This document shows positions 2,143-32,052 of a stretch of DNA of 35,477 nucleotides, in pieces. Under the pieces are notes generated by a model. It did no database searches, was not told where the DNA came from, and worked only from the letters and a program-made list of their open reading frames with translations. The position numbers and the translations under genes were made by a program. Location of the stretch: the UHGV virus genome UHGV-1967114; one strand, written 5' to 3'. The stretch is from a virus. Positions within the stretch are counted from its first letter, which is position 1; each line of letters begins with the position of its first letter.

Positions 2143-2242
2143 AAATTAGATACTAAATATATACGTGAAGGATGTTGAGCTGGTCAACGTCTACGGGGGA
2201 GAACATCCCCCGCTAACCTTTTTCTTATTTGAGGATTTACCT

Positions 2243-10170: not shown

Positions 10171-10665
10171 ATGAGTTTAGAACTAATTCCCTTAGTAATT
10201 CGTAAAGGCGAAAAAATCACGCTGGCGAATGAAGAGGGTGTAACAATTCAGGTAGGAAATAGTAAAGGTATCATTTATCAGGTTGATGACACTCCGGCTA
10301 ATCATGAGATTAAAACCTTAGATTTTGCCGAAGGTAAATATACCATCGTAACCACTTTGGAAAATGAACTGGTATCAATGCAGGAATTAACTGTTTTACC
10401 AGTATTCGCCAAACAATCCAAAAAAGAATATCTGCGGGAAACTATCGCCACCATAGAGCAAGTTATTTTCGCCAGGCTATCTGGAGACGAAGCCGCATTA
10501 TCTGCAATGACCGTGAAAGGGAATACTTTCGCCTATGAGTCATTAGGTGTTCTCCAGCAATTAAAGACTGATTATGAACGTCAGTTATCTAAACTAATTC
10601 AAGCCGAACGACGTAAACAGGGAATTAGCCCGATTAAAAATATCAAATTACGTCTTACGCGATAA
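10171..10665 (+). CDS. Hypothetical head-module protein between terminase and portal
   Basis: 164-aa ORF with RBS AAGGGGTAA; position only. Confidence 0.5.
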   Translation: MSLELIPLVIRKGEKITLANEEGVTIQVGNSKGIIYQVDDTPANHEIKTLDFAEGKYTIVTTLENELVSMQELTVLPVFAKQSKKEYLRETIATIEQVIFARLSGDEAALSAMTVKGNTFAYESLGVLQQLKTDYERQLSKLIQAERRKQGISPIKNIKLRLTR

Positions 10666-14426: not shown

Positions 14427-14717
14427 ATGTTCAAATTATCAGAATCACAATTATCAAGAATGTTTAAGAGTGCTCCTGTATTTTCGGTGGAAGGTGGTAA
14501 ATCAATTCGTGCTTATCATGAAATTACTACTACCGACGAATCAGGGGTAATGACAGAGACAGAATTTCTATTTTGTCGTGAGGGAGACTTAAAGCAGGGT
14601 GATATTGTCACTGTAGAAAATCAGCGTTTCAAAGTTCAATACGTTAAGCGCAATGGTGATAATACCACTGATTGCTTTATTACTCTGGCAGGGGGTACAC
14701 ATGCTCGCTACCGTTAA
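14427..14717 (+). CDS. Head-tail connector/adaptor candidate
   Basis: 96-aa ORF with RBS AAGGGGGTAA directly after capsid gene terminator; position only. Confidence 0.45.
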   Translation: MFKLSESQLSRMFKSAPVFSVEGGKSIRAYHEITTTDESGVMTETEFLFCREGDLKQGDIVTVENQRFKVQYVKRNGDNTTDCFITLAGGTHARYR

Positions 14718-15123
14718 TAATATGCCTAGACTGAAAATCAAACGCGCCTTGCAAGATATTATCGAACAAGATTTAGGTCTGGCTTTAAACGTAGAACAAA
14801 CTCAGCAAGGTTTTAGTGATGACGTGGTTTGTTGGATTACTGGCATGAATGAGACTTACACTAGGGTCCGTGGTGGTAATGCAATGCAAGCTGAATGCGT
14901 TATCGAAATGCAATTATATTCTCAGATTCATGAAACAAAAATCCATGAGGGTATTTGCCAGATAATCCAGATTCAGCCGGATAACCCACGATTTAAAGAT
15001 TTGGGCTTCTCTATTTCAGATATCACTCCAGTAGCTTCTAATACCGATTATGACGATGATTCTAGTGATGGGGGTATCGTTGGGACACTTAGCCTTAAAT
15101 TTTCTTATCTAGCGCGTTTTTAA
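14701..15123 (+). CDS. Head-tail joining / tail completion candidate (start taken at ATG 14701, overlapping previous stop)
   Basis: ORF 14653..15123 trimmed to first ATG with upstream GGGGG; position only. Confidence 0.4.
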   Translation: MLATVNNMPRLKIKRALQDIIEQDLGLALNVEQTQQGFSDDVVCWITGMNETYTRVRGGNAMQAECVIEMQLYSQIHETKIHEGICQIIQIQPDNPRFKDLGFSISDITPVASNTDYDDDSSDGGIVGTLSLKFSYLARF

Positions 15124-19701: not shown

Positions 19702-20175
19702 ATGTCTCAGCAATTTAAAGATATTTTTACTGGTGGTCTGGTAAGTATGTTCTATCACGCCGATACCACTAACACCAATCTTGCACATGAAAGCTATGAA
19801 GAAATTAAAGAGTGTGCTGGTTTTCCTGAAACTGGTATCGAGCGCGGCACTGTAGAAGTTAAATCCTTCTCTTCTCAGTATAACCGTAAGCTGGTAGGTA
19901 AACTGAACGTTCCTGATCTGACTCTGACCGTTAACTACATTCCTGGTGATGCGGTACACGAGAAGCTCATTAAAGCTGCCGAAGACGGTACTCGAATTCA
20001 GATTAAGATTGAATACTATGTAGATGCAGCAAAACAGACTGGTATTCGCACAGCTTTCAACGGCTTCATCTCTAAAGTTGCTATGAACGGTGGCGATGAA
20101 GAAGTGGTAACGAAAGAGTTTACCTTTGCTGTTGATGGTGCTCCGCTGAAACAGCAAATCTTCACTGCCGGATGA
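19702..20175 (+). CDS. Major tail tube protein (lambda gpV-like N-domain)
   Basis: Pattern PGD...L....EDGT...I......F.GF......G..EVVT..F...VDG resembles gpV; RBS TAAGGGGTAA; position upstream of chaperones and tape measure. Confidence 0.7.
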   Translation: MSQQFKDIFTGGLVSMFYHADTTNTNLAHESYEEIKECAGFPETGIERGTVEVKSFSSQYNRKLVGKLNVPDLTLTVNYIPGDAVHEKLIKAAEDGTRIQIKIEYYVDAAKQTGIRTAFNGFISKVAMNGGDEEVVTKEFTFAVDGAPLKQQIFTAG

Positions 20176-20349: not shown

Positions 20350-20856
20350 ATGGCAAATGTCGTTAAAGTTCCTGGCTGGATCGGGTCATCTGCTGTATCG
20401 GTGACGGGTAAGCGATGGATGAAAGAAGCATTAACAGCTTTAAAAGTTCCGGCTCCGCGTAATATGTCGGCAATGGCTGGTCGTGGTATGGATACGGTTG
20501 TAGCTACTGCATCGTGGTCTACTTCATTGGGTAATAACTGGGGTGTAACTGCTTCAAACTATCCTGTTTCCGGTATGCAAAGCAAAGGATCTATGGAGAA
20601 CCCCGAAAACGTGGGCGTAGGGCGTCTGGTTGGCGTTATCGTTGGTCAATTCAATGGCGGTACTCCTACTATGGCTGTATATCTCCAGAACGGTAGAGCG
20701 GGGAATATAACCGTTAATTTGGGTGGTGCTGCTGTCACTGTTCCTTATAACAGTATGCAAAGTGGTTTTCATTACTATTGGTTAAGCAATCCTCCGGCTG
20801 CTTTCCTAACAAATATTAAGAAAACTGGCACTAAGCAGACTTTGAAAATCTCTTAA
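20350..20856 (+). CDS. Hypothetical Gly/Ser/Thr-rich protein inserted between tail tube terminator and tail chaperone genes
   Basis: 168-aa ORF with RBS GGAG; no lambda counterpart at this position. Confidence 0.5.
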   Translation: MANVVKVPGWIGSSAVSVTGKRWMKEALTALKVPAPRNMSAMAGRGMDTVVATASWSTSLGNNWGVTASNYPVSGMQSKGSMENPENVGVGRLVGVIVGQFNGGTPTMAVYLQNGRAGNITVNLGGAAVTVPYNSMQSGFHYYWLSNPPAAFLTNIKKTGTKQTLKIS

Positions 20857-21596: not shown

Positions 21597-24029
21597 ATGA
21601 CAAAACATATAGTAACAATAGAAGGGGATAATAAAGGTCTAAGGAGAAGTACCAATGAAGCCGCCGACCTTCTCGATAGTTTGTCTGAAAAGGCAAGTGG
21701 TATTGATTTTGGTGGTGGCTTATCTGGTCTGACTGGATCTCTTCGTGGGATCGCTGGCTCTGCTGGTTTGGCTGCTGGTGGTATCGGCTTAGTTGCGACC
21801 GCAGTGGTTGCAGCCGCTAAAGCTGGCGCGGAATACGTTAAACAATATTCAGAAGTATCTAAGGCGACCGGACTCTCGATTGAATCCCTTCAAAGACTGG
21901 AAAAGGAATTTTCTGGTACTGGCCTAACAGTTGAAAAATTCGGTGATATCAACAAAGACACCTTAGATAAGATGGGTGATGCATGGGCTAACGGTGGTGG
22001 TATTGCTGATGACTTAGAATCGGTTGGCCTTAAGTTAGAAAACTATGCTCACTTCATGACTGATCCGCAAGGTGGTATGAAAGCGGCGATCCAAGTGTTC
22101 TATGACATGAAGAAAGCCGGAAAATCAATGGCTGAAATCAAGTTCATGATGGAATCTTTAGCCAGTGATTCAAGTCATATGACCAGCCAGCTTGAGAAAT
22201 ATAATAGTGCTCAAGAGGCGATGATCGCTATTCAGAATCAATCTGTTAACGTCACCGAAGAAAACGCTAAAAAATATGATAAATTTTCTCAAAATATCAA
22301 TAAGCTGGAAAATAACCTGAAAGGTGTCGGCATGACCATTTCTGGTCCTTTGGTTGATAGCTTAAACTGGTTATTTGACTGGTTTAATATTGATTGGGAA
22401 AAGAGTTCTCTATTCAGGGCATTAGATCGACTGAATAAAGAAGGCAAGACCGCAACTGGTGGTATTCTTAACGCCAACCATAAAGACGCTCAAAAGATTA
22501 TTGACAAGTACAATAAAGAAAAGCGTTGGAATAATCTAGCAGATTGGGAAAAGGCCGCGATCCGTGGTGCTGGTGTCGATCCTCGTACTGCTGGCTTTGA
22601 TGTAGAAGGATTTAAGAAACGTTTTGGTGGGTCTTATAAGAAAAATGGTGCTCTGATTGTCGTAGATGCTGGTGAACATCTGACACGCAAGGCAGATCCT
22701 AACACTGATTTAACTCTACCAAATAAACCAGTAAGACCAGAATCATTGGGTAAATCTGGCAACGAGAAGAAAGCCGAGGAAGAAGCACGCAAGAAAGCGG
22801 AAGAGGCAGCTAAAAAGGCTAAGGAAGCCGCAGAAAAAGCACAGAAAGAACGTGAGGATGCAATCAAGCGTCTGAATGCACTTGATGTTAAATTGCAAGG
22901 GCAAGTTGCAGCGTCTATTGCTTCTCAAAACAAGCAGTTAGAAGCCAGCTTGAAAGATTTGGATACTGCTTTAGATCTGGGCTTAATCTCTCAACAAGAC
23001 GCAGCCGCGAAACGCCAATCCTTAATCGATCAGAATACTGAAAACGTATACAAAATGGTCTTAGGTGCTGATCCTGTTGATGCGCTGAATGCTTTAACAC
23101 AATTGCAACAAATCAGGGACAATGAGTTAGAAAGCCATAAACGGTTACTTGATGGTAAGGCTATCTCCTACGATGAATATATGCGTCGTGTGAATGATAC
23201 CAATCAGAATTATAGTCAAATTGGCAATGCTTTACAGGGAATGGATGGTTTTAAAACCAATCAATTAACCAGCGGATTTGATTATCAAGACTCAAATAAT
23301 CCGTTTGCTAAATTTAATGCAATCGATAAAGAGAAATCGGAAGCCGAACAAGATTATAAGACCGATAAACTACTCAAGATTGATGGGATCACCGATCCGG
23401 CTAAACGGATGGAAGCATTAGAAAAACTCAATGAAAACCATCAAAAACGGATGGCTGCAATTGAAAAGAAATATGCTGATGCTCGCCAGTCAATAGCCGA
23501 TGATATGTATGGCGGTTTTGCTGCTGCAATGACTCTCTTCGGGCAGGAAAACACAAAGGCTATGCAGATGGCTTTCAATGCTCATAAGGCATTCTCTATT
23601 GGACAAGCGACGGTGAACATGTGGACGGCTGCTACCGATGCATGGAACGATCCGACCAACGTCACCACAGGTCAAAAAATTGCTGCTGCTGCATTGGCTG
23701 TTTCTCAGAACATGGGGAACATCGCAAACATCAAGTCTACTAACGTTAGCGGTATGGCTCATGATGGTATTGATAACATCCCTCGTGAGGGTACATGGTT
23801 GCTTGATAAGGGTGAACGAGTAGTTGATCAGCGTACTAACGGTGATTTGAAAGACTTCTTATCTGCTCAAAAATCAGGCGGTGGTAACTCTCAGCCGATT
23901 GAAGTTAATGCGCCTTTGAACATTAACGGCAACGTTAATAGCTCAGACAAGATGGTTATGGATGCTATCAAACGTCACGCTAAGTTTGTTGCTCAGGCGA
24001 TAGAAGACGTTCAGCGTCGTAAGATGTAA
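21597..24029 (+). CDS. Tail tape measure protein
   Basis: 810 aa, Gly/Ala-rich hydrophobic N-region, extended coiled-coil-like central region, position after chaperone pair. Confidence 0.8.
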   Translation: MTKHIVTIEGDNKGLRRSTNEAADLLDSLSEKASGIDFGGGLSGLTGSLRGIAGSAGLAAGGIGLVATAVVAAAKAGAEYVKQYSEVSKATGLSIESLQRLEKEFSGTGLTVEKFGDINKDTLDKMGDAWANGGGIADDLESVGLKLENYAHFMTDPQGGMKAAIQVFYDMKKAGKSMAEIKFMMESLASDSSHMTSQLEKYNSAQEAMIAIQNQSVNVTEENAKKYDKFSQNINKLENNLKGVGMTISGPLVDSLNWLFDWFNIDWEKSSLFRALDRLNKEGKTATGGILNANHKDAQKIIDKYNKEKRWNNLADWEKAAIRGAGVDPRTAGFDVEGFKKRFGGSYKKNGALIVVDAGEHLTRKADPNTDLTLPNKPVRPESLGKSGNEKKAEEEARKKAEEAAKKAKEAAEKAQKEREDAIKRLNALDVKLQGQVAASIASQNKQLEASLKDLDTALDLGLISQQDAAAKRQSLIDQNTENVYKMVLGADPVDALNALTQLQQIRDNELESHKRLLDGKAISYDEYMRRVNDTNQNYSQIGNALQGMDGFKTNQLTSGFDYQDSNNPFAKFNAIDKEKSEAEQDYKTDKLLKIDGITDPAKRMEALEKLNENHQKRMAAIEKKYADARQSIADDMYGGFAAAMTLFGQENTKAMQMAFNAHKAFSIGQATVNMWTAATDAWNDPTNVTTGQKIAAAALAVSQNMGNIANIKSTNVSGMAHDGIDNIPREGTWLLDKGERVVDQRTNGDLKDFLSAQKSGGGNSQPIEVNAPLNINGNVNSSDKMVMDAIKRHAKFVAQAIEDVQRRKM

Positions 24030-24034: not shown

Positions 24035-24080
24035 AGCCCCCATAGTGATAAATAATCATAAAACTATGGGGGCTTTTTCT
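24035..24080 (+). terminator. Stem-loop/terminator-like structure between tape measure and distal tail genes (AGCCCCCATAG...CTATGGGGGCT + T5); 3' arm contains the RBS of the next gene
   Basis: 11-bp stem, 18-nt loop, TTTTT; GGGGG of stem is the likely SD for ATG 24081. Confidence 0.4.
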
Positions 24081-24641
24081 ATGTTCAAATCCAAGAATAT
24101 TAAAATCACAGATTTTACTCTTAAATCAAAACAACCTTTCTTCAAGGCGCAATCTATTTCTGGTAAGTTCCAGCGTCGCTTTACTGGTATTCATTTTTAT
24201 GAAGCAGAATTTACAGCTAATTTCATGGCTCAGGATATTAACGAAGTAAAAGAATTTGTAGCACGTCACCTTTTTGGTCGTCCTTTTAGTGTGCCACTGT
24301 CTTACTTTTCAAAATATACAGGTGATGTACGCCAGATGGTTACGGCTGCTGCTGGTACTGCTCGCGGTGGGCGTAAGGTGAGAATCTCCAACTTCACCGG
24401 AACACTGAAAGCAGGAACTATCATCCAGTTTGAGAACCACAAGAAAATCTACACGATCACCGAAGATGTGAAATCAGGTGGTGAAATGAAACTCTTCCCT
24501 AACTTGCGTCAGAACGTCCTAGCGGGTGAGGTGATCAAGTATCAGAACGTAGAAGGTGAATTTGTTCTCAAAACTGAAAATATCGATTGGAAGATCGCCC
24601 AGATTGGCAAGATGAAATTCGAATTAGTGGAGAATGTATAA
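24081..24641 (+). CDS. Minor tail protein (gpM-like position / distal tail protein candidate); start at ATG 24081
   Basis: Position after tape measure; stop overlaps next start (TAATG). Confidence 0.5.
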   Translation: MFKSKNIKITDFTLKSKQPFFKAQSISGKFQRRFTGIHFYEAEFTANFMAQDINEVKEFVARHLFGRPFSVPLSYFSKYTGDVRQMVTAAAGTARGGRKVRISNFTGTLKAGTIIQFENHKKIYTITEDVKSGGEMKLFPNLRQNVLAGEVIKYQNVEGEFVLKTENIDWKIAQIGKMKFELVENV

Positions 24642-25294
24642 TGGCAACTATTCAGGAATCATTCAGCAAACTATGCACTAATCTGGACTTCATCGAGGTC
24701 TACAACGACCAGACAGGTCAGAATGTGTCTAGATTGACGCTACCGCAGCTTTTCTCCACTGGATCGATGTTTCACATTATCGAAGTGATAACAGCGTCAG
24801 GGGACGTTCTACGGCTTACAGATGGGTATTTCGATTTGGACTATAACGGTTTTACATATCTCGCAACGGGTGATTTTCTTCAAATCTCATCGAATACCGA
24901 AGAGAAGGAGATCAACAACAACGGGATCAACGTAACTGTTTCTAACGTTCGCGAAGAATACATTACCCTGATTCGTAACAAGCAATTCGATAAATCAGAT
25001 GTGAAAATCGAGATGGTTTTCCTTAACCCCAACACGGGCAAAGTTGAAACCACTTACCCTGTTTTCCGTGGGGTAGTCGATTCCATCGGGATTAACATCG
25101 AACATGAAGATGATGAGTGTAAAAACGAATCAGAATTTCAGCTTAATAGTATCTGGGAAGTTCTAGATAAAAACGCTCGTAGTCATGCCTCCGATGGTAT
25201 CCACCGTTCCTATGTTGGAAACGAGAACGATCTATTCTTCTCAAGGGCGGGTCGCTGGCAATCAGAAAGCAGGTGGCATTCATCGAAGAAATAA
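24641..25294 (+). CDS. Minor tail protein (gpL-like position)
   Basis: 217-aa ORF coupled to upstream gene by TAATG overlap; position. Confidence 0.5.
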   Translation: MATIQESFSKLCTNLDFIEVYNDQTGQNVSRLTLPQLFSTGSMFHIIEVITASGDVLRLTDGYFDLDYNGFTYLATGDFLQISSNTEEKEINNNGINVTVSNVREEYITLIRNKQFDKSDVKIEMVFLNPNTGKVETTYPVFRGVVDSIGINIEHEDDECKNESEFQLNSIWEVLDKNARSHASDGIHRSYVGNENDLFFSRAGRWQSESRWHSSKK

Positions 25295-25340
25295 TCCCTT
25301 CTCCCTAAGCCTAGTAAATAACAGCATGGAGGTATTCAAC

Positions 25341-25760
25341 ATGCTAAAAACTAGGCTTATCACCGATTACATCAATTCTTTAATAGGTCAGGAGTTCGTT
25401 CAGGGTGAGAATGATTGCAATTTAATTGCATGTAAGATCATCGATATTCTCGCTGGCACTGATCTATATAATTCTCTTTATAAAAAATATTCAACTAAAG
25501 AAGAAGGCTTGAAAATCTGCAAAGAATTAAGCGGGTATTCAAATATCCTTCAACCAATTAAGAAACATTTCAAATTAGTCACTGATGATTTACAGGACGG
25601 CGATTTACTGGTCACAGCCCACAAATTAGGAAACCGTAATTATTATTCCGTAGTTCCTCATTATTCCGGTTATGGCCTCGTTGAAGAAGATGGTATCTGG
25701 ATGACCATTCCTGTTTCAGACATTGACTATGAACAAGTTTATAGATTCGGGGGTGAATAA
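25341..25760 (+). CDS. NlpC/P60-like tail assembly protein (gpK-like C-terminal domain)
   Basis: GENDCNLIAC...GDLLV.AH....NYYSVVPHYSGYG pattern resembles Cys-His-His NlpC/P60 catalytic arrangement; RBS GGAGG; stop overlaps J-like start. Confidence 0.5.
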   Translation: MLKTRLITDYINSLIGQEFVQGENDCNLIACKIIDILAGTDLYNSLYKKYSTKEEGLKICKELSGYSNILQPIKKHFKLVTDDLQDGDLLVTAHKLGNRNYYSVVPHYSGYGLVEEDGIWMTIPVSDIDYEQVYRFGGE

Positions 25761-28700
25761 TGGGATTTGAAATATTGGTAGGCGCGGTTATTGCTGGTGC
25801 GTCTGCTGGGATGGCTGCTGCTGCAACATTTTCTGTTATGACCGCAGTCGCTATCGGTATGGCTGCTGGTGCAATGACCTTGATCGCTTCCACTGTAGGC
25901 GCACCAAAAACACCTAAAGTACAAAGCCCAGATAATGCGGTGACACTAGGAACATCAAACGATCCGAAAGCGGTGATACCAGTCGTTTTCGGTACTACCC
26001 GCACTGGCACAAACTGTGTTTACAAAGCAGTTTCTAAGCAAGAAAACAATAAGCTAGTGCAAATCTTCTCTGTAGCCGAGGGTGAAATCGACCATTACAA
26101 AGCACTCTTTATTGATAATAAAAATGTTCTTGTTGGTAAGAACATGACGATCCGTGATGGTATTCTCGATAAGGGCAACATTAAAGAAGAATATCGTAAA
26201 GTATTAGAAGTCGAGTTCCGCACGGGCAAGAATCCTAACACCGCTTTGTCGCTGGCAAAACGTCATTTAGGCTCAGACTGGACCGACGCTTTCAAGGGTA
26301 ACGGCATTGCAACCATGTGTATTGTGTTACGTCGTGATGACAAATCTCTTGCTGCTGGTGTTGATATTCTCCAGCCAAATAGCCAGGTAGCAGTAGACGT
26401 TTGCGGGTTAAAGATTCGTAACCTTGAAACCAATGCTATTGAGGCTAGCACTAACGGCGTGGACCAGATTTTCCACTACCTAACAAATGAAAAATATGGT
26501 TTATCAGTACCAATTGAAAACATCAACGTTGATTCATTCCTGAAAGTACGTAAACAAGTACGCCAGATGGACCTACATTCAAACGGTGCATGTGATCCGA
26601 ACGCCAGCTTTAAAGAGAACTTGACCAGTCTTATGCAGACTTTCGGCGGGGTGATGTTCGAATCCTTTGGACGTATTACGCTGAAACTGGATGCTCCTGA
26701 TATTGTTAAGCATACCTTCAATGAAGACAATATCATGATGGGTAAGGTATCACTGAAAACAGGTGGCACTAACGGTTATTTCAATACCATTAACGCAATG
26801 TATCAGGAACCATCAATCGACTATTCAGAGCAAATGCTACGTTATCCGGCTGATGCTGAAAACGATGCTACTGTTCGCGCAGATGGTCGAATTATTGCTA
26901 AGGATGTAGAATATCGTTTCGTTAAGTCTAAAGACCAGATTGATAAACTTGCGAGTATTGAACGAAATAAATCTCGTATCACTCAGGTTATCAGCTTTAT
27001 GACTACTGACGCATTCACTGCCGAAGTATGGGACGTTATCAGCGTAACCTATGATGAATTGAAGCTGAATAATTCCTTATGGCGTATTACTGCAATTGAT
27101 CGCTCGATTGATTCTGGTATTGCTGGGATGATGACTATCACCGCCACAGAATATAATTCTCAGGTTTATACTGACCTGAACTATGCGGCAACTCCAGACA
27201 ATAGACCAAGTGGTTTACCGGATTCAATGACAGTACAGAAGCCTACTAATTTCAGAATTAAGGCAACTGGCGAGACGATTTACGGTAAAAACGTTACTTT
27301 GACATGGGATGCGCCGGAAGATTTTAACCGTTATGGTTTTCAGATTGATTACCGTGTAAGCGGATCACCTAACTGGATTAAGCTGGGACAGACTTCACAG
27401 CAAATTTTCAGTGTCAATGCACTGGCAAAAGATCGTTCTTATGATTACCGAGTTTGTGCTTTCGGTATCATCGCTCGATCCGATTGGGTAGAACTGATTA
27501 ACCAGAATCCAACTGTTACATATGAATTGCCGACTCCGGTTATTCGAATCAAAAATCAGGGTAGCACGCCAGGAACTTTCGAAGGTAATGATCTGATTAT
27601 CGAATGGGAAAATCAGCAACAATTAGATGTTGAGATCAACGGGGAAACTAACAAGTTTAGTGACCTGTTTGAAGCATACATTATCAAGGTGACTAACAAG
27701 GCTGGTAAGTCTATTCAGTACCGTACCCGCGATCCTGAATCATGGACTTATACGCTTGATATGAACCAGTTTAACGGCCTTTCGCGTCAACTGACGGTAG
27801 AAGTATCAGCTAAGGGCTATAACAACTCAGAGAGCGCCCCAGCGCGTTTAGTGGCTATCAACCCACAGCATAAGCCAATGAAAGGTTTTAGTGCGCGTGG
27901 TGGCTTTAATACTGCGTTTGTTAGCTGGGCAGATGACGTAGAACATGACTATGCAGGGTCAATCATCCAGTATGCAACCGATAACACTTTCTCCGATGCA
28001 AGGGCAGTAAGCACGAATAGTGTTAGCCATACTTCCTTTGATATTGCTGACGGTGATTATTATATCCGTGGTGCTCACTACGATATTTTCGGTATGGATG
28101 ATGCTGTCTGGTCCGAACCTTATTTCATGTCTATGAAGTCTACGATTAGTTGGGACGACCAGGACAAAGAAGCACTGGAAGACCTGATTGGTTTACAAGA
28201 TCGCTTAGATGAAACCATCGCTGATGCTATTGCTCAAGCTGGCGCTAATGCCGATGCTAAAATTGATGCAATGCATAAGCAAATCACTACCGAAACAGGG
28301 CAGACGGTGCAAGCCTCAGCCGATACCTTAAAGAGTCTGATTACTTCTGGTGATCAAGCCAGTGCAACTAAGATTGATCAGGTTAAAGCTGAACTGAAAG
28401 GCGATATCACCAAAGAAGTTAGCGCATCTGCTACTACCCTGAAACAAGCTATTGCTACCAGTGAGGCAGCAAGCGCAAGTAAGATTGATCAAGTTCGGGT
28501 AGAAATGGATGGCAAGATTGCTGGTGTGAATCAGGAAGCAGATGTAAAAATCGATGCTTTGAAAGGAACCATTAACAGCAAATACAATCTGGCAGTTAAT
28601 GCAGATGGTCGCGTGGCTGGTATTCACATGAGCGCAACCAACGATCCGGCACAACCGACTAAAATCATCTTTACGGCTGATAAAATTGCTGTAGCTCCGC

Positions 28701-29506
28701 AGAACGGGACCGATGTTTGCCCGTTTGGTATCGAAGGTAACAAGGTTTATCTCGATAATGCGATGATTCGTAATGCTGCAATTGGCACAGCCCAGATTAA
28801 TGATGCGGCGATTACTACCGCTAAGATCGGAAATGCTGCAATTAACAGCGCGAAGATTCAGGACGGGGCAATCACTAACGCCAAGATCGTAAACGGTGCA
28901 ATTGATAACGCCAAAATTGGTAACTATATCCAGTCTTCCAACTGGAACGGATCTACCGGATGGCATATCAACAAGAACGGGTCCGCTACGTTCATGAATG
29001 CTACCGTTAAAGGTAATATCACGGCTGATTCTGGTACTCTGAACAACGTCACGATTAACTCTAGCTGTGTTATTAAGGGTATGCTTGAAGCTACTCAGGT
29101 TAAGGGTGATTTCGTTAAGGTGATTGGTAAGAAATTCCCTCATCGTCAACAAAACTGGCCTGATGGCACTGTTACGGTAAGGGTGGAAGATGATCATAAG
29201 TTTGATCGCCAAATTGTGATTCCAGCTATTCACCATAACGGGTCTGTTCGTCGTGGCGAAAGTAGTGATCATTGGGACACTTGCCGATTAATCGTTAAGA
29301 AAAATGGCTCTGTTCTATATGATCGCACGGCTACTTCTGGCAGCATGTACACAGGCGTTATTGACATGCCAGCGGGTAAAGGTGCTGTAACGTTAACATT
29401 CCAAGTTATTTGTGATGGTGTTAACAACTATAACCCAAGTGCATATATCAGCGATCTAACAGTAATGGTAACTAAAAAAGCCACTACTGGTATTACTGTT
29501 TCTTAA
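25760..29506 (+). CDS. Central tail fiber / host specificity protein (lambda gpJ-like) with hydrophobic Gly/Ala-rich N-terminal segment
   Basis: C-terminal ~150 aa (..SGTLNNVTINSSCVIKGMLEA..FPHRQQNWPDGTVTVRVEDDHKFDRQIV...VIDMPAGKGAVTLTF...MVTKKATTGITVS) closely resembles my recollection of lambda J receptor-binding end. Confidence 0.85.
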   Translation: MGFEILVGAVIAGASAGMAAAATFSVMTAVAIGMAAGAMTLIASTVGAPKTPKVQSPDNAVTLGTSNDPKAVIPVVFGTTRTGTNCVYKAVSKQENNKLVQIFSVAEGEIDHYKALFIDNKNVLVGKNMTIRDGILDKGNIKEEYRKVLEVEFRTGKNPNTALSLAKRHLGSDWTDAFKGNGIATMCIVLRRDDKSLAAGVDILQPNSQVAVDVCGLKIRNLETNAIEASTNGVDQIFHYLTNEKYGLSVPIENINVDSFLKVRKQVRQMDLHSNGACDPNASFKENLTSLMQTFGGVMFESFGRITLKLDAPDIVKHTFNEDNIMMGKVSLKTGGTNGYFNTINAMYQEPSIDYSEQMLRYPADAENDATVRADGRIIAKDVEYRFVKSKDQIDKLASIERNKSRITQVISFMTTDAFTAEVWDVISVTYDELKLNNSLWRITAIDRSIDSGIAGMMTITATEYNSQVYTDLNYAATPDNRPSGLPDSMTVQKPTNFRIKATGETIYGKNVTLTWDAPEDFNRYGFQIDYRVSGSPNWIKLGQTSQQIFSVNALAKDRSYDYRVCAFGIIARSDWVELINQNPTVTYELPTPVIRIKNQGSTPGTFEGNDLIIEWENQQQLDVEINGETNKFSDLFEAYIIKVTNKAGKSIQYRTRDPESWTYTLDMNQFNGLSRQLTVEVSAKGYNNSESAPARLVAINPQHKPMKGFSARGGFNTAFVSWADDVEHDYAGSIIQYATDNTFSDARAVSTNSVSHTSFDIADGDYYIRGAHYDIFGMDDAVWSEPYFMSMKSTISWDDQDKEALEDLIGLQDRLDETIADAIAQAGANADAKIDAMHKQITTETGQTVQASADTLKSLITSGDQASATKIDQVKAELKGDITKEVSASATTLKQAIATSEAASASKIDQVRVEMDGKIAGVNQEADVKIDALKGTINSKYNLAVNADGRVAGIHMSATNDPAQPTKIIFTADKIAVAPQNGTDVCPFGIEGNKVYLDNAMIRNAAIGTAQINDAAITTAKIGNAAINSAKIQDGAITNAKIVNGAIDNAKIGNYIQSSNWNGSTGWHINKNGSATFMNATVKGNITADSGTLNNVTINSSCVIKGMLEATQVKGDFVKVIGKKFPHRQQNWPDGTVTVRVEDDHKFDRQIVIPAIHHNGSVRRGESSDHWDTCRLIVKKNGSVLYDRTATSGSMYTGVIDMPAGKGAVTLTFQVICDGVNNYNPSAYISDLTVMVTKKATTGITVS

Positions 29507-29524: not shown

Positions 29525-29566
29525 AATCCCGCTTAATTCTTTTGAGTTAGGCGGGATTATTTTTAT
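29525..29566 (+). terminator. Terminator-like hairpin after J-like gene (AATCCCGC...GCGGGATT + ATTTTTAT)
   Basis: 8-bp stem with large 18-nt loop and T-rich tail. Confidence 0.45.
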
Positions 29567-29611
29567 CTAAATAATTTTGCCATTAAACTATATAAAAATA
29601 TCGGGGGCGTA

Positions 29612-29890
29612 ATGACTGAAATTATATATGGCGGTATCGGTGTTATCGCCTTAATTTGTGGTGGTCTTTGGAGACTTCACCGAAATCAATTAGCAACTGA
29701 AAATAGGTTATCTAAATTGGAATCCAGCGACGCATTGTTAAACCAGAAGTTTGAGACGATGCAGAATAACCATACTCAGATTGCTGAACGTGTTTACCAA
29801 ATGGAACAAACACTACACGGTATAGAGAAGAAAGTGGTTGCGATGGACGCCAAATTTGACCAAGTTCTCGACATACTCAAACAAAAATAA
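29612..29890 (+). CDS. Membrane protein with N-terminal TM helix and coiled-coil tail; holin- or spanin-like lysis protein candidate
   Basis: IIYGGIGVIALICGGLW hydrophobic segment then charged helical region; RBS GGGGGCG; position at start of lysis region. Confidence 0.4.
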   Translation: MTEIIYGGIGVIALICGGLWRLHRNQLATENRLSKLESSDALLNQKFETMQNNHTQIAERVYQMEQTLHGIEKKVVAMDAKFDQVLDILKQK

Positions 29891-29908
29891 TAATAAAGGG
29901 GTGAATAT

Positions 29909-30079
29909 ATGAAGAATAAACTTAAGAAATATTTTGGTTATCTCTTGATTGTCGCCCTCACTTATAACGTAGCTATTAGACCTCTGCTAACGTCCTTTGG
30001 GCTTGAACTCCCGGCTATGACCGTGGATGAACAATTGCTAAGGACACTGGCGGGGGTCTTTTCGTTATTAGGGGGCTAA
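29909..30079 (+). CDS. Small single-TM protein (56 aa); holin/antiholin candidate
   Basis: RBS AAAGGGGTGA; hydrophobic core YLLIVALTYNVAI; below ORF-track cutoff. Confidence 0.3.
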   Translation: MKNKLKKYFGYLLIVALTYNVAIRPLLTSFGLELPAMTVDEQLLRTLAGVFSLLGG

Positions 30080-30080
30080 C

Positions 30081-30764
30081 ATGGCAACCAGTACCAATAA
30101 ACGAAACGCTCTAAGGACTAAGAAAGCGTTACGCCAATGGACTGATAAAGCAACCGATACATTCGAAAAGGCGATAGGGGAAGGGGCGATCTTTGCTTCC
30201 AGAGCACTCCAGAAGAAGATTAACAAGAATGTTGATAGACCTACTCGATGGACTCAGCAAGCTGTAGGTAATACCAACTACAAGAACCGATCAGGGACGA
30301 GACACCAAATCTTCATCAAGGGCGCAAGGGATAAGGACAAGAAGATCGGTAGTCAGGACGACTATCTGAAACACTATTTCGATGGTGGCAAAATCAATAA
30401 GCTAGTGCCAATCGCTAACGGTAAGGTCTTAGACGCCCACGGGAACATTAAGGCCATCAAAGGCGGTAAGATGATGCGTAACATCGAAAACGGCAACTTC
30501 ATCAAGGTAGAGAACAAGGAAGGGACTTTTATCATGAAGAAGTACAAGCCTAAGAAATCCCGAACCAAACGCGCTAAGAATGGATCGGCGGTGGCAAAAC
30601 GTCGCTTAGAGAAACGCATCCAGAAACAGAGTAAGCGAATTGTTGCCGTTAAGTCGGATAAAATTTCTACTCGTTATTCGACGCTAGGATCGTGGGAAAG
30701 CAATGAAGCAATGATGCTTGAAAACATCAATAAGCACATTAAATCGCGCATGAAATACGTTTAA
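30081..30764 (+). CDS. Hypothetical highly basic protein (Lys/Arg-rich)
   Basis: 227-aa ORF with RBS; basic composition. Confidence 0.55.
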   Translation: MATSTNKRNALRTKKALRQWTDKATDTFEKAIGEGAIFASRALQKKINKNVDRPTRWTQQAVGNTNYKNRSGTRHQIFIKGARDKDKKIGSQDDYLKHYFDGGKINKLVPIANGKVLDAHGNIKAIKGGKMMRNIENGNFIKVENKEGTFIMKKYKPKKSRTKRAKNGSAVAKRRLEKRIQKQSKRIVAVKSDKISTRYSTLGSWESNEAMMLENINKHIKSRMKYV

Positions 30765-30802
30765 TCAATAAATACCCTCATAGAATCCTATGGAGGTATA
30801 AC

Positions 30803-31150
30803 ATGGCTAAAAATATTTTCACTGAATTTCCTACTTATCCGGTCGATCAGCTTTCCGGTATTTTTATTAATGGCATTAGCCCAGAATCAATGACCTATGA
30901 TTTTGAGGCGAAGAGAGTTAAACATAAACAATATAAAGAATGTATCCGCGATCATGAAAAAGGGACCGTGTTTTGTGTCGCTACATTGGCTAAACGTCCT
31001 AAGTATCGTTTTCGTGTCGGGCAAGAAGTCGATGTAGTTAATCCTTATAGCTTTAACTGTCTGGGTGATGCACGCGCGGTGTGTGTAGGCACTGCTCCTT
31101 ATTATATCAAGGGTATGCGCTTTATTGGTTATATCTTCGAAATGATCTAA
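30803..31150 (+). CDS. Hypothetical protein
   Basis: 115-aa ORF with RBS GGAGG. Confidence 0.55.
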   Translation: MAKNIFTEFPTYPVDQLSGIFINGISPESMTYDFEAKRVKHKQYKECIRDHEKGTVFCVATLAKRPKYRFRVGQEVDVVNPYSFNCLGDARAVCVGTAPYYIKGMRFIGYIFEMI

Positions 31151-31159
31151 GGGGGTAAT

Positions 31160-31513
31160 ATGTTAAGTAAGCATTTTTCTCGCAAGGAATTTAAATGTAG
31201 ATGCGGAAAATGTGATTATGATACTATCGATGCTGAATTACTGGTAATTCTTGAGGATGTACGAGAACACTTCGGGAAACCAGTTATTATTAACAGTGGC
31301 AACCGTTGCCCGACTCATAACAAGAATGTAGGCGGGGCAGCCAATAGCTATCACGTTCGAGGCCGCGCGGCTGACATTGTTATCAAGGGTGTCTCACCTG
31401 ATATTGTTCATGCTTATCTTGATGGGAAATATCCTACTCAATACGGCTTAGGAAAATATAAAACATTTACGCATATCGATTCCAGATCGAAAAAATCACG
31501 ATGGAATGGATAA
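31160..31513 (+). CDS. Peptidase M15 family (Peptidase_M15_3-like) cell-wall hydrolase; endolysin candidate
   Basis: Motif SGNRCPTHNKNVGGAANSYHVRGRAADIV ... FTHID matches zinc-binding H/D/H signature of M15 peptidases (recollection). Confidence 0.65.
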   Translation: MLSKHFSRKEFKCRCGKCDYDTIDAELLVILEDVREHFGKPVIINSGNRCPTHNKNVGGAANSYHVRGRAADIVIKGVSPDIVHAYLDGKYPTQYGLGKYKTFTHIDSRSKKSRWNG

Positions 31514-31518
31514 AATTA

Positions 31519-31545
31519 AAGCGCCTCTAGTGGGCGCTTTTTTGT
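31519..31545 (+). terminator. Intrinsic terminator ending the late operon (AAGCGCC-TCTAGTG-GGCGCTT + T6)
   Basis: GC stem and TTTTTTG immediately after stop of 31160..31513. Confidence 0.7.
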
Positions 31546-31710
31546 TAGAATATGCTGGCGACGTTAGCTATATTTCTGACCATTTTTTCATTATAGACAA
31601 ATATACCGCAGACGATAAAGTCGTTTTTGACGAAGCCGTCTCTGGTTGAAGTAATGAAAGAACCGGAAGACCTAGAGCTTGATTTAAGCCCATTAGAGAC
31701 TCTCTAACGC

Positions 31711-31741
31711 AATTAAATTAAAAAGGGGTACGAATTACCCC
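31711..31741 (-). terminator. Intrinsic terminator for minus-strand recombinase-side operon (GGGGTA-CGAAT-TACCCC with T-run on minus strand)
   Basis: Hairpin preceded on plus strand by AATTAAATTAAAAA; located downstream of minus-strand stop at 31780. Confidence 0.5.
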
Positions 31742-31779
31742 TTAAAGCGTTTGGTTCGTTATACGGCGATTTAGGCCGC

Positions 31780-32052
31780 CTATGATTTATTTTCTTGTTC
31801 TATGAAAATCTTTCTCACCTCATCAGAATAAATGTCTAGTGATTCCTCATAACATTTTCTGTATTCACCGTAATTACTGGTGGTCTTTTGACATAGCAAT
31901 TTCAATGTTTTATGTGCTCCATCAATGAAAGCATCTTCTCTATAGGTTAGCGGTCTACGCATTTCTTGGTCTACGGTTGCCAATGCCAGGCAAGAATTCA
32001 TAGATAAAATCAAACCTAAAATCTTAATCATCTTCATTAGCTTAAATTCCAA
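31780..32052 (-). CDS. Small secreted protein (signal peptide MKMIKILGLILSMNSCLALA), Cys-containing
   Basis: Hydrophobic N-terminus with ALA cleavage-like site; overlaps 3' end of recombinase gene. Confidence 0.5.
   Translation of the reverse strand: MEFKLMKMIKILGLILSMNSCLALATVDQEMRRPLTYREDAFIDGAHKTLKLLCQKTTSNYGEYRKCYEESLDIYSDEVRKIFIEQENKS

What the first reader, a model, noticed from the sequence alone, without database searches (positions are those of the whole stretch)
29612..31513. Atypical lysis region: no recognizable spanin, and two unknown genes (one very basic) before the M15 peptidase
Two small membrane proteins (92 aa with TM plus coiled coil; 56 aa single TM) are followed by a 227-aa Lys/Arg-rich protein and a 115-aa protein before the 117-aa M15 peptidase. 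No lipoprotein o-spanin or embedded Rz1-like ORF was seen. The 92-aa protein could be an i-spanin without partner, a holin, or part of a non-canonical lysis or superinfection module.
Basis: inference. Interest (0 to 1): 0.35.

Follow-up and report, generated by a model that had tools for sequence, protein, structure and literature searches.

The report
Spanin-less prophage lysis cassette with passengers
The five genes are a conserved, terminator-bounded cassette at the end of an E. coli prophage's late genes: it holds the cell-wall-cutting enzyme and two small membrane proteins but no outer-membrane "spanin", and the very basic protein looks more like a displaced tail-completion protein than a lysis factor.

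Summary
ORFs of 92, 56, 227, 115 and 117 aa lie at the stated coordinates, and six-frame scans find no credible lipoprotein spanin in this whole hicB-integrated prophage or near the block in six related loci scanned.

The genes form a cassette bracketed by intrinsic terminators (29525-29558 and 31518-31540). The cassette is syntenic in prophages of E. coli, Salmonella, Providencia and more distant hosts.

- **Endolysin slot:** it is filled by three unrelated enzyme families (Peptidase_M15_3, GH24 lysozyme, Peptidase_M15_4), so the M15 peptidase is the soluble endolysin.
- **92-aa protein:** predicted N-out/C-in with a cytoplasmic coiled coil. It is therefore not an i-spanin. Its architecture matches Mu gp25 "releasin", but it does not match DUF2730.
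- **227-aa protein:** it belongs to phrog_1924 ("minor tail protein"). Size, net charge (+37) and helix/beta/helix order match lambda gpZ, and the neck module lacks a tail-completion gene. Direct gpZ homology is only borderline.
- **115-aa protein:** function unknown.

How the outer membrane is breached is unexplained. This is a new variant of a known kind, of moderate interest and easy to test in E. coli.

The parts
29525..29558 (+). Intrinsic terminator (15-bp stem, 4-nt loop, T-run) between the J-like tail-tip gene and the cassette
   Evidence: A hairpin plus T-run at this place occurs in all loci examined but one (L018, where two extra genes precede slot 1). Close relatives show compensatory stem changes (L003, L005), and L020, L022 and DCP80 have unrelated hairpins at the same place.
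29612..29890 (+). Slot 1: 92-aa membrane-tethered coiled-coil protein, predicted N-out/C-in (TMD residues 3-20; motif W-R-L-H-R ... T-E-N-R-L-S-K-L-E). Candidate holin-level or releasin-like lysis factor.
   Evidence: About 50 clusters in E. coli, Salmonella and Providencia, all annotated 'hypothetical'. The architecture equals that of Mu gp25 (PMC9239132). hhalign to gp25 gives E=0.0063, probability 6%. No DUF2730 hit.
29909..30079 (+). Slot 2: 56-aa small membrane protein (basic N-terminus, TMD with conserved polar Y-N, short hydrophobic C-terminus). Holin candidate or accessory. Translationally coupled to the next gene.
   Evidence: Present in all relatives, even where gene callers did not call it. 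The gap from slot 2 to slot 3 is -8 to +1 nt in 8 of 9 loci.
30081..30764 (+). Slot 3: 227-aa strongly basic protein (net +37) of the phrog_1924 family. Best reading: a displaced lambda-gpZ-type tail-completion protein (TCP/Neck1).
30803..31150 (+). Slot 4: 115-aa beta-rich protein of unknown function that always follows slot 3
   Evidence: The DCP80 homolog is confirmed by hhalign (probability 93%, E=3.9e-7). The AF2 model has pLDDT 62. Fold hits to phage neck and tail-tube-fold proteins are weak only (E of 0.1 or more).
31160..31513 (+). Slot 5: soluble zinc peptidase endolysin (Peptidase_M15_3), with no signal or SAR sequence
   Evidence: In relatives the slot is filled by GH24 Phage_lysozyme or by Peptidase_M15_4.
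31518..31540 (.). Bidirectional intrinsic terminator that closes the cassette. It lies inside the 47-aa 'ORF' at 31506-31649, which is therefore not a gene.
   Evidence: An equivalent hairpin follows the endolysin in every relative.
14427..15123 (+). Context: the neck module holds only an FII-like stopper (14427-14717) and an acidic 140-aa protein (14701-15123; pI 4.5, net -8) that resembles tail terminators. No gpZ-type gene lies at the canonical place.
   Evidence: Phage_attach E=3.7e-5. Charge and size compared with lambda gpU and R4C ORF018.

Best explanation
The window is a complete temperate siphovirus prophage of E. coli, integrated in hicB, with a GTA/Cronusvirus-like tail tip. The region 29525-31540 is a conserved five-gene cassette bounded by terminators at the distal end of its late genes. 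The cassette has mixed function.

(1) The 117-aa M15 zinc peptidase is a soluble endolysin. It has no export signal, so it needs the inner membrane to be opened.

(2) The 92-aa and 56-aa membrane proteins supply that inner-membrane step. The 92-aa protein is a membrane-tethered cytoplasmic coiled-coil protein with the architecture of Mu gp25 releasin. The 56-aa protein is the more holin-like small membrane protein. Which of the two forms the lesion is inferred, not shown.

(3) The 227-aa polycationic protein is most likely the phage's gpZ-type tail-completion protein. Such a protein is present at about one copy per virion, sits inside the neck and presents a positive surface to the DNA end. 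Here its gene would be displaced from the neck module to a position after the tail-tip gene, where the upstream terminator would keep its expression low.

(4) The 115-aa protein is its constant companion, and its role is unknown.

(5) The phage family has no spanin. The outer-membrane step is either dispensable under natural conditions or carried out by a component not yet recognized.
For: Whole-element context: the prophage is integrated in hicB and occurs in 57 of 5,426 complete E. coli genomes.

Cassette boundaries: terminators flank the block and are conserved, with compensatory stem changes.

Synteny: the five slots keep their order across genera and in distant prophages.

Endolysin slot: it is exchanged among M15_3, GH24 and M15_4, while slots 1 to 4 stay constant. 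The M15 active-site motif is intact and no TM or SAR segment is present.

Slot 1: the flanking charges predict N-out/C-in topology in all nine loci. Mu gp25 is described as a 99-aa N-out/C-in protein with a 73-aa cytoplasmic domain and basic junction residues, and DUF2730 proteins are also found next to cytoplasmic endolysins (PMC9239132). The juxtamembrane motifs align.

Slot 3:
- 6 of 8 family members hit phrog_1924 'minor tail protein', best E=2.8e-9.
- hhalign to R4C ORF049 gives probability 96.6%, E=6e-10.
- Minor_tail_Z is the sole Pfam hit of R4C_049 (E=0.013, collinear over 140 residues) and of P0067 (E=0.11).
- P0067 also touches phrog_27 'tail completion or Neck1'.
- The alphaproteobacterial subfamily aligns to a gpZ profile at E=6.8e-4, collinear.
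- Among the top three viral fold hits (E=0.018-0.039), the only informatively named one is 'HK97-gp10 putative tail-component' (E=0.026).
- Lambda gpZ is 192 aa with net charge +37, against 227 aa and +37 here.
- The AF2 model runs N-terminal helices, beta middle, C-terminal helix. That is the TCP layout reported for 80alpha gp51 and lambda gpZ (PMC11661146).
- The neck module lacks a TCP gene.
- In R4C the tail terminator gene also lies after the tail-tip genes (PMC10276861).

No spanin.
Against: No experiment links any of these genes to lysis or to virions.

Slots 1 and 2 match no holin, spanin or releasin family model. The 56-aa protein lacks the charged C-terminus typical of holins.

The gpZ link is transitive and sub-threshold. 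The window protein itself has no Pfam hit. hhalign of the whole family against lambda gpZ or against a six-member gpZ profile gives nothing (probability 0.1 to 0.2). No PDB fold match was found, and the model is of only moderate confidence (pLDDT 68).

A virion gene sitting between membrane proteins and an endolysin, translationally coupled to a membrane protein, is unusual.

Slot 3 diverges far faster than its neighbours: 35% identity against 84-96% in L015/L031. Co-variation with the TMP N-terminus was seen in one comparison and not in the other.
Confidence: 0.5

Rival explanations
1. All five genes are lysis genes. The polycationic 227-aa protein, with its 115-aa partner, is released through the membrane lesion together with the endolysin. 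It destabilizes the LPS outer membrane and so replaces the missing spanin, acting as a large 'disruptin-like' factor.
For: Slots 1 to 4 always travel with an endolysin inside one terminator-bounded unit, whatever the endolysin type. Slot 2 and slot 3 are translationally coupled. High positive charge (+26 to +40) is conserved while the sequence diverges to about 30% identity, which fits a function that depends on bulk charge or on variable surface chemistry. No spanin exists. About 15% of phages lack spanins, and phiKT uses a cationic peptide, gp28, for this step (bioRxiv 10.1101/515445).
Against: The family keeps specific conserved motifs (RPTxFT, QxxYL, YGNI; invariant P54, Y95, L96, P110, G121, N122). 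This points to a defined fold rather than a simple cationic peptide. Homologs in R4C and RcRhea lie just upstream of cos and TerS, not next to the endolysin. The K/R cluster is not the protein's most amphipathic segment. At 227 aa the protein is four times the size of phiKT gp28. All the weak family signals point to tail-completion or neck proteins.
Confidence: 0.17
2. The 92-aa protein is an i-spanin (Rz-like) whose o-spanin partner has been lost or is non-canonical.
For: It has an N-terminal TMD plus a coiled coil, and a weak PHROG hit to Rz-like spanin phrog_739 (E=0.036).
Against: The flanking charges predict N-out/C-in topology in all homologs, so the coiled coil would be cytoplasmic. About 70 residues is too short to span the periplasm. 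No lipoprotein partner is found in any frame or in any relative. The 56-aa neighbour contains no cysteine. The PHROG hit is at the level of coiled-coil noise.
Confidence: 0.04
3. Slots 1 to 4 are not lysis or virion genes. They form a moron, superinfection-exclusion or anti-defence module that happens to sit beside the endolysin.
For: The region after the tail-fibre gene often houses morons in lambdoid phages (general knowledge). Slot 3 behaves like a fast-evolving, frequently exchanged allele. The neighbouring region is rich in exchangeable T4-like cargo.
Against: The order and tight coupling are conserved from E. coli to distant hosts, whereas true cargo next door varies freely. No sigma-70-type promoter was found ahead of the cassette, so nothing suggests expression in the lysogen. 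A soluble endolysin needs a membrane-lesion protein, and the only other small-TM ORFs in the prophage (2165-2571) are not called by PGAP and were not checked for conservation in relatives.
Confidence: 0.08
4. The element is a decaying prophage that has lost its spanin, so the arrangement has no functional meaning.
For: PGAP flags the terminase as a pseudogene in the identical PI7 record. The window lacks the UvsW/UvsY region that relatives carry.
Against: TerL aligns in one frame over residues 23-647 of the DCP80 TerL, with no frameshift. All cassette ORFs are intact. The spanin-less arrangement is shared by every relative examined, across several genera and three endolysin types. The same module appears in a deposited phage isolate record, DCP80.
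Confidence: 0.05

Closest known systems
Phage Mu lysis cassette: gp22 SAR endolysin, gp23/23.1 spanin, gp25 'releasin' (DUF2730)
   Same: The 92-aa protein has the same size class and architecture as gp25 (99 aa). Both have only a few residues before an N-terminal TMD, predicted N-out/C-in topology, basic residues at the junction and a cytoplasmic helical domain of about 70 aa. Both lie within a few genes of the endolysin. The juxtamembrane motifs are similar (GG.W..RR....TER...LE in Mu, GG.W..HR....TENR...LE here).
   Different: No match to the DUF2730 model, and hhalign probability is only 6%. The endolysin here is soluble, not SAR. Mu has a spanin and this phage has none. The Mu authors state that the role of DUF2730-type proteins next to cytoplasmic endolysins is untested.
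Lambda gpZ / 80alpha gp51 / SPP1 gp16.1 / HK97 gp10 tail-completion proteins (TCP, Neck1; Pfam Minor_tail_Z)
   Same: Size is about 190-230 aa. The positive charge is extreme and includes a K/R cluster (lambda gpZ net +37, this protein +37). The predicted order is N-terminal helices, a beta insertion, then a C-terminal helix. The PHROG label is 'minor tail protein'. Family members give sub-threshold, collinear Minor_tail_Z hits. The phage otherwise lacks a TCP gene.
   Different: The gene lies after the tail-tip gene inside the lysis cassette, not between the head-closure and terminator genes. Direct profile comparison with gpZ is negative for the enterobacterial members. Virion presence is untested. 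The protein evolves faster than its neighbours.
Roseophage vB_DshS-R4C and Rhodobacter Cronusvirus (RcRhea, RcCronus)
   Same: The structural-module plan is the same: adaptor before portal, fused protease-capsid, FII-like stopper, Dit, hub, peptidase/DUF6950 and megatron-type tip. Both have a slot-3 homolog (R4C ORF049, RcRhea gp45). R4C places a neck gene (terminator ORF018) after the tail-tip genes.
   Different: In those phages the slot-3 homolog is the last gene before cos and TerS, and the endolysin (RcA gene 3) follows TerL (PMC8601537). Counterparts of slots 1, 2 and 4 were not looked for in those genomes, and none is annotated.
Spanin-less phage phiKT and its gp28 'disruptin'
   Same: It infects a Gram-negative host, has no spanin, and encodes a strongly cationic protein in the lysis region.
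   Different: gp28 is a 56-aa amphipathic peptide. The protein here is 186-239 aa with conserved fold-type motifs and no outstanding amphipathic K/R helix.
Shewanella LambdaSo Lcc6
   Same: It is a small single-TMD protein with a cytoplasmic tail that is required at the holin level, in addition to the canonical lysis proteins. It shows that extra small membrane factors exist.
   Different: No sequence relationship was tested or is claimed. LambdaSo has a pinholin, a SAR endolysin and a nested Rz/Rz1, and Lcc6 is encoded far from the lysis genes.

Membership tests
Two-component spanin (Rz/Rz1 type) | i-spanin: N-in/C-out TMD with a periplasmic coiled-coil domain long enough to reach the outer membrane | tested here: not met
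   Flanking charges (acidic before the TMD, K/R/H after it) in all nine slot-1 homologs predict N-out/C-in. Only about 70 residues follow the TMD. This rests on the positive-inside rule, not on an experiment.
Two-component spanin (Rz/Rz1 type) | o-spanin: small lipoprotein with a lipobox, encoded embedded in, overlapping or adjacent to the i-spanin gene | tested here: not met
   No + strand ORF with a lipobox in 29612-31513. A six-frame scan with nested starts of the window and of six related loci gave only antisense or internal artefacts. The 56-aa neighbour has no cysteine.
Unimolecular spanin (T1 gp11 type) | N-terminal lipoprotein signal plus a C-terminal TMD in one protein | tested here: not met
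   The whole-window scan gave no such ORF. The only free-standing hit (31780-32031, minus strand, 'MNSC') has no C-terminal TMD and is not conserved in relatives.
Holin | Small membrane protein with at least one TMD, encoded next to the endolysin | tested here: met
   The 92-aa and 56-aa proteins each have a TM segment. They lie in the same terminator-bounded unit as the endolysin in all relatives.
Holin | Membership of a described holin family, or a charged hydrophilic C-terminus | tested here: inconclusive
   No holin family hit in Pfam or PHROGs. The 56-aa protein ends in a hydrophobic stretch (LLGG). The 92-aa protein has a long charged C-terminal domain.
Holin | Causes timed, lethal permeabilization that releases a soluble endolysin | not testable with these tools
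   This needs expression in E. coli.
Mu gp25 releasin / DUF2730 | N-terminal TMD, N-out/C-in, a cytoplasmic domain of about 70 aa, and basic residues at the junction | tested here: met
   compared with the description in PMC9239132. This is a prediction only.
Mu gp25 releasin / DUF2730 | Match to the Pfam DUF2730 model (PF10805) | tested here: not met
   No DUF2730 hit for the window protein or three distant homologs even at E up to 10, whereas Mu gp25 scores 2.5e-13. hhalign against gp25 gives E=0.0063, probability 6%. There is only a 'faint' precomputed hit for one homolog.
Mu gp25 releasin / DUF2730 | Paired with a SAR endolysin whose release it promotes | tested here: not met
   The M15 peptidase has no hydrophobic N-terminal segment. 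The GH24 and M15_4 endolysins of relatives have hydrophilic N-termini with no obvious SAR segment (sequences and hydropathy maxima; not tested formally).
Tail completion protein (lambda gpZ; Pfam Minor_tail_Z; PHROG 'tail completion or Neck1') | Sequence match to the family model | tested here: inconclusive
   The window protein has no Pfam hit. It matches phrog_1924 'minor tail protein' at E=1.3e-3, with the best family member at 2.8e-9. Relatives R4C_049 and P0067 give Minor_tail_Z as their sole Pfam hit, at E=0.013 and 0.11, below the cutoff. Subfamily against gpZ profile: E=6.8e-4, probability 27%. Whole family against gpZ: probability 0.2.
Tail completion protein (lambda gpZ; Pfam Minor_tail_Z; PHROG 'tail completion or Neck1') | About 110-250 aa, with a positively charged surface, an N-terminal long helix, a loop or beta insertion, and a C-terminal long helix | tested here: met
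   Net +37, the same as lambda gpZ. AF2 elements H2-23, H27-50, beta strands, H205-225, compared with PMC11661146. The model has pLDDT 68, so the fold is only indicative.
Tail completion protein (lambda gpZ; Pfam Minor_tail_Z; PHROG 'tail completion or Neck1') | Gene located between the head-closure and tail-terminator genes | tested here: not met
   The gene lies after the J-like gene. The canonical place holds only the FII-like gene and an acidic 140-aa gene. R4C sets a precedent for a displaced neck gene.
Tail completion protein (lambda gpZ; Pfam Minor_tail_Z; PHROG 'tail completion or Neck1') | Present in virions and needed for infectivity | not testable with these tools
   TCPs are rarely resolved by cryo-EM (PMC11784142). 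The absence of ORF049 from the R4C model is therefore uninformative.
Endolysin, LAS/M15 zinc peptidase | Peptidase_M15_3 domain with the H-x6-D ... H zinc ligands | tested here: met
   E=6.5e-28 over the whole domain. H65-x6-D72 and H105 are present.
Endolysin, LAS/M15 zinc peptidase | Occupies the endolysin position of a lysis cassette | tested here: met
   In relatives the same slot is filled by GH24 Phage_lysozyme (L018, DCP80) or by Peptidase_M15_4 (L020, L022).
Disruptin (phiKT gp28 type) | Short (about 56 aa) cationic amphipathic peptide | tested here: not met
   The protein is cationic but has 186-239 aa and conserved fold motifs. Its K/R cluster is not among the windows of highest hydrophobic moment.

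The most novel reading that the evidence does not exclude
The four conserved genes upstream of the swappable endolysin form a previously undescribed envelope-disruption system that replaces both the classical holin and the spanin. In this reading, a releasin-like membrane-tethered protein and a 56-aa membrane protein open the inner membrane. They deliver the translationally coupled polycationic 186-239-aa protein (with its 115-aa partner), which then breaches the outer membrane. The gpZ-like features would then reflect exaptation of a tail-completion protein into a lysis factor.
Probability: 0.13. Interest if true: 0.7.

Novelty: new variant of a known kind. Interest (0 to 1): 0.42.

Why it matters
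Roughly one in seven phages of Gram-negative bacteria lacks a spanin, and only one alternative (phiKT gp28) has been characterized. This cassette offers a genetically tractable spanin-less system in E. coli itself. It is present in about 1% of complete E. coli genomes and is common in Salmonella.

It has three useful properties:
- a soluble endolysin whose slot has been swapped three times;
- a Mu-releasin-like membrane protein next to a cytoplasmic endolysin, which is exactly the untested case flagged by the Mu study;
- a candidate tail-completion gene in an unexpected place.

If the basic protein is a TCP, the locus is also a clean example that neck genes can move to the end of the tail operon. 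That matters for automated phage annotation, which relies on gene order. The four families currently have no Pfam model and are annotated 'hypothetical' everywhere.

Tried and rejected
1. DNA and protein searches of deposited phages found no close relative of the region. Only DCP80 and weak Cronusvirus hits appeared, and only with the short allele.
2. Pfam and PHROGs gave no holin, spanin or releasin assignment for the 92-aa, 56-aa or 115-aa proteins. The many hits for the 92-aa protein are coiled-coil noise.
3. The 'faint' DUF2730 flag on one slot-1 homolog could not be reproduced.
4. A profile search of PDB sequences for slots 3 and 4 returned chance hits only.
5. AF2 models were of moderate to low confidence (pLDDT 68 and 62). 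Foldseek against PDB gave no significant match for either. The viral library gave only weak, thematically consistent hits.
6. hhalign of the slot-3 family against lambda gpZ alone and against a six-member gpZ profile was negative. Only the alphaproteobacterial subfamily gave a borderline collinear match.
7. R4C terminator ORF018 showed no sequence similarity to slot 4 or to the window's 140-aa neck protein.
8. The lookup of R4C virion proteomics failed, because no supplementary files are held.
9. The test for co-variation of slot-3 alleles with the TMP N-terminus was inconclusive: one comparison fits and one does not.
10. The minus-strand ORF at 31780-32052 was considered as an o-spanin and rejected. 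It has a non-canonical box, lies on the opposite strand beyond a bidirectional terminator, is not proline-rich, and was not seen at this position in relatives.
11. The small upstream TM ORFs at 2165-2571 were considered as alternative holins. PGAP does not call them, and their conservation was not tested.
12. The idea of a defective prophage was rejected for TerL.


Full report
**1. The observation**

The five ORFs are present at exactly the stated coordinates. All have strong Shine-Dalgarno sequences and are tightly packed, with gaps of 18, 1, 38 and 9 nt.

- The 92-aa protein has a single hydrophobic segment (residues 3-20) followed by coiled-coil-type sequence.
- The 56-aa protein has a basic N-terminus, one TM segment and a short hydrophobic C-terminus.
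- The 227-aa protein has 56 K+R, net charge +37, pI 10.6 and no TM segment.
- The 117-aa protein is a Peptidase_M15_3 domain (E=6.5e-28) and matches PHROG endolysin family 894 (E=2.7e-45). Its H65-x6-D72 ... H105 zinc motif is intact.

No alternate-frame ORF with a lipobox exists on the + strand across the region. A six-frame scan that also tried nested start codons found nothing credible anywhere in the window. The same scan found nothing near the block in six related loci.

**2. What the window is**

The region is 100% identical to E. coli PI7, and 57 of 5,426 complete E. coli genomes carry it. RefSeq annotation shows split hicB halves on both sides, so the window spans a whole prophage integrated in hicB. 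No lysis cassette can be hiding outside the window.

PHROG and Pfam scans give a siphovirus layout:

| Window coordinates | Assignment |
|---|---|
| 8186-10099 | TerL |
| 10171-10665 | adaptor-like protein |
| 10676-12187 | portal |
| 12233-14233 | fused protease-capsid |
| 14427-14717 | FII-like stopper |
| 14701-15123 | acidic 140-aa protein |
| 15133-15966 and 19702-20175 | tube proteins |
| 21597-24029 | tape measure protein |
| 24045-25760 | Dit, hub and DUF6950 |
| 25760-29506 | J/megatron-type tip |

The cassette follows, then a serine integrase on the other strand. This plan matches the roseophage R4C and the Rhodobacter Cronusviruses.

**3. The block is a conserved, terminator-bounded cassette**

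A 15-bp-stem terminator follows the J stop codon (29525-29558). A bidirectional terminator follows the M15 stop codon (31518-31540).

A hairpin plus T-run at the first position is present in all loci examined but one (L018). Close relatives show compensatory stem changes, and distant relatives have unrelated hairpins at the same place. A terminator also follows the endolysin everywhere.

Context look-ups show the same order in E. coli, Salmonella and Providencia, in three more distant prophage groups and in the deposited record of Escherichia phage DCP80. The order is: tip gene, then a TM + coiled-coil protein of about 100 aa, a membrane protein of about 55 aa, a basic protein of 181-239 aa, a protein of 99-119 aa, and the endolysin.

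Genes within the block are often translationally coupled. The gap from slot 2 to slot 3 is -8 to +1 nt in eight of nine loci.

**4. The endolysin slot**

The last slot holds Peptidase_M15_3 here. It holds GH24 Phage_lysozyme in L018 and DCP80, and Peptidase_M15_4 in L020 and L022. Slots 1 to 4 remain homologous throughout.

Non-orthologous replacement at a fixed position is the signature of an endolysin slot, so the M15 peptidase is the endolysin. It has no signal or SAR segment. It therefore depends on a protein that opens the inner membrane. This step is inferred.

**5. Slots 1 and 2**

The 92-aa family has about 50 clusters, all annotated 'hypothetical'. It shares a TMD followed by W-[KR]-x-H and E-x-[KR]-L-[ST]-x-[LI]-E, then a coiled coil.

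Every homolog has an acidic residue before the TMD and basic residues after it. This predicts N-out/C-in topology, so the coiled coil is cytoplasmic, which excludes an i-spanin role.

The layout is that of Mu gp25, the 'releasin'. Mu gp25 has 99 aa, about four periplasmic residues, N-out/C-in topology, a 73-aa cytoplasmic domain and basic junction residues. DUF2730 relatives are also found beside cytoplasmic endolysins, and their role there is untested (PMC9239132).

hhalign aligns the juxtamembrane motifs of the two proteins, but only at E=0.0063 and probability 6%. No slot-1 protein matches the DUF2730 model, whereas gp25 scores 2.5e-13. The protein therefore works-like a releasin at best, and membership is not shown.

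The 56-aa family is conserved and has a polar Y-N inside its TMD. It lacks the charged C-terminus typical of holins and matches no known family. The only other small-TM ORFs in the prophage (2165-2571) are not called by PGAP. On that basis I assign the inner-membrane step to slots 1 and 2 together. Which of them forms the lesion is open. LambdaSo Lcc6 shows that additional small membrane factors acting at the holin level do exist.

**6. Slot 3, the basic protein**

The family is rare: 6 clusters among 5.8 billion proteins, and 12 representatives among 1.84 billion by profile search. It is not an orphan.

- 6 of 8 members match phrog_1924 'minor tail protein', best E=2.8e-9.
- The family profile matches R4C ORF049 (probability 96.6%, E=6e-10).
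- RcRhea gp45, annotated 'minor tail protein', is a core member of phrog_1924 (E=1.2e-56).
- Conserved motifs (RPTxFT, QxxYL, GG, YGNI) run through the family.

For R4C_049 and for P0067, the only Pfam hit is Minor_tail_Z (lambda gpZ). It is sub-threshold but collinear (E=0.013 over 140 residues, and E=0.11). P0067 also touches phrog_27 'tail completion or Neck1'. The alphaproteobacterial subfamily aligns collinearly with a gpZ profile at E=6.8e-4, probability 27%.

Lambda gpZ is 192 aa with pI 12 and net charge +37, and has its own K/R cluster. The window protein also carries +37, and every allele of the family carries +26 to +40.

The AF2 model (pLDDT 68) has two long N-terminal helices, a beta-rich middle and a long C-terminal helix. 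This is the TCP layout reported for 80alpha gp51, with the extra beta domain noted for gpZ. That TCP is a single copy inside the neck and offers a positive surface to the DNA end (PMC11661146).

The neck module here has an FII-like stopper and an acidic 140-aa protein (pI 4.5, net -8). The latter resembles the terminators lambda gpU (net -20) and R4C ORF018 (140 aa, net -7). There is no basic gpZ-type gene. In R4C the terminator gene itself lies after the tail-tip genes (PMC10276861), so displacement of a neck gene has a precedent in this lineage.

The absence of PDB fold hits and of ORF049 from the R4C model is uninformative, because TCPs are almost never resolved (PMC11784142).

Against this reading:
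- Direct profile comparison of the enterobacterial family with gpZ is negative.
- The gene sits inside a lysis cassette and is coupled to a membrane protein.
- It diverges much faster than its neighbours. In L015/L031 it is 35% identical, while J, slot 1, slot 4 and Dit are 84-96% identical.
- In L031 its divergence parallels the N-terminal part of the TMP and the tube genes. In L032 it does not.

I put the TCP reading at about 0.55 to 0.6.

**7. Slot 4**

The 115-aa family has 16 clusters. It is conserved and present in DCP80 (hhalign probability 93%) and in the distant prophages. The model is of low confidence (pLDDT 62). Foldseek hits are non-significant (E of 0.1 or more), though enriched in phage neck, tube and baseplate proteins. 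Its function remains unknown. It may be a partner of slot 3.

**8. The missing outer-membrane step**

No spanin of any type is encoded in this prophage or near the cassette in the relatives scanned. About 15% of phages share this property, and phiKT uses a cationic peptide instead (bioRxiv 10.1101/515445).

The main rival reading is therefore that the polycationic slot-3 protein is the outer-membrane disruptor. Its conserved charge despite rapid sequence change, and its constant association with the endolysin, fit that idea. Its size, its conserved fold-type motifs, the lack of a strongly amphipathic K/R helix and its homologs' location next to cos and TerS in Cronusviruses argue against it.

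**9. Verdict**

The finding is real. The region is a spanin-less lysis cassette of a so far uncharacterized family of temperate siphoviruses. It carries two uncharacterized membrane proteins, one of which is releasin-like in architecture. It also carries two passenger genes, and the basic one is best explained as a displaced gpZ-type tail-completion protein.

This is a new variant of a known kind. It is moderately interesting because it is directly testable in E. coli, and because it bears on two open questions: how spanin-less phages breach the outer membrane, and what releasin-like proteins do next to soluble endolysins.

Noticed in passing
window 16042-19644 and 20350-20856 (flanked by 15133-15966 and 19702-20175): A T4-type long-tail-fibre distal subunit (gp37-like, phrog_1699 E=2e-145) and a gp38-like adhesin (phrog_1121 E=2e-34) sit inside a siphovirus tail operon, between two major-tail-protein-like genes. 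This looks like a myovirus receptor-binding cassette grafted onto a GTA/Cronus-like siphovirus.
   Followed up: no
window about 31603-31668: A 65-nt stretch just after the cassette terminator is 84% identical to part of the 'inh' (prohead protease inhibitor) gene of RB49-like T4 phages, in 59 phage records. No ORF here corresponds to it. It may be a recombination scar.
   Followed up: partly
L001, L003, L006-L008, L013-L016, L018, L031, L032 (between endolysin and integrase): Related prophages carry T4-like genes between the endolysin and the serine integrase: UvsW helicase, UvsY, UvsW.1, Cef, a NUMOD3 homing endonuclease and (in DCP80) endonuclease VII. The window lacks this segment. Its 31660-31783 region matches the sequence next to the integrase in relatives, which suggests a deletion.
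   Followed up: partly
L009 / L030 (PQ671644.1, Escherichia phage DCP80, 1-26 kb): This record is classified as a T4-like Gaprivervirus. Its first ~26 kb is a complete GTA/Cronus-like siphovirus structural module plus this cassette, followed by T4-like genes such as motA. It is either a chimeric assembly of two phages or a real hybrid.
   Followed up: partly
window 435-1229 (- strand): The prophage's left end encodes a secreted 264-aa protein that RefSeq annotates as 'lysozyme inhibitor LprI family'. It is a possible moron, and an odd companion for a phage that has to degrade the cell wall.
   Followed up: no
window 31780-32052 (- strand): An unannotated 83-90-aa ORF with an N-terminal signal-like segment and a non-canonical lipobox (LSMNSC, or an A-L-A signal-peptidase I site). 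It overlaps the start of the integrase gene by 11 nt. It is not a spanin, was not seen at this position in relatives, and its function is unknown.
   Followed up: partly
window 30081-30764 versus L015/L031 and L003/L032: The slot-3 gene behaves as an exchangeable allele. In L031 it is 35% identical although flanking genes are 84-96% identical. In L032 it is 77% identical although slot 4 is 45% and J is 65%. The recombination boundaries therefore fall tightly around this one gene.
   Followed up: partly
window 8186-10099: PGAP marks the terminase large subunit of the identical PI7 prophage as 'frameshifted; internal stop'. However, the 637-aa ORF aligns in a single frame with residues 23-647 of DCP80 TerL (43% identity). 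The pseudogene call is probably an artefact of a longer reference.
   Followed up: yes
window 2165-2344 and 2398-2571: Two adjacent small ORFs (59 and 57 aa) with strongly hydrophobic segments lie after the Nu1-like gene (1588-2142). PGAP does not call them. They were not examined in relatives and could be additional membrane proteins.
   Followed up: no
window 31506-31649: The 47-aa ORF that overlaps the end of the M15 gene contains the bidirectional terminator hairpin at 31518-31540. It is very unlikely to be a gene.
   Followed up: yes
window 1588-2142: A Nu1-like putative small terminase subunit lies about 6 kb from TerL (8186). A Rha-family regulator and several divergently oriented small genes lie between them. 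The assignment rests on positional analogy with DCP80, whose 163-aa counterpart gives a weak Phage_Nu1 hit (E=4e-4) and directly follows the cassette. The two proteins were not aligned, and the window protein itself has no Pfam hit.
   Followed up: no
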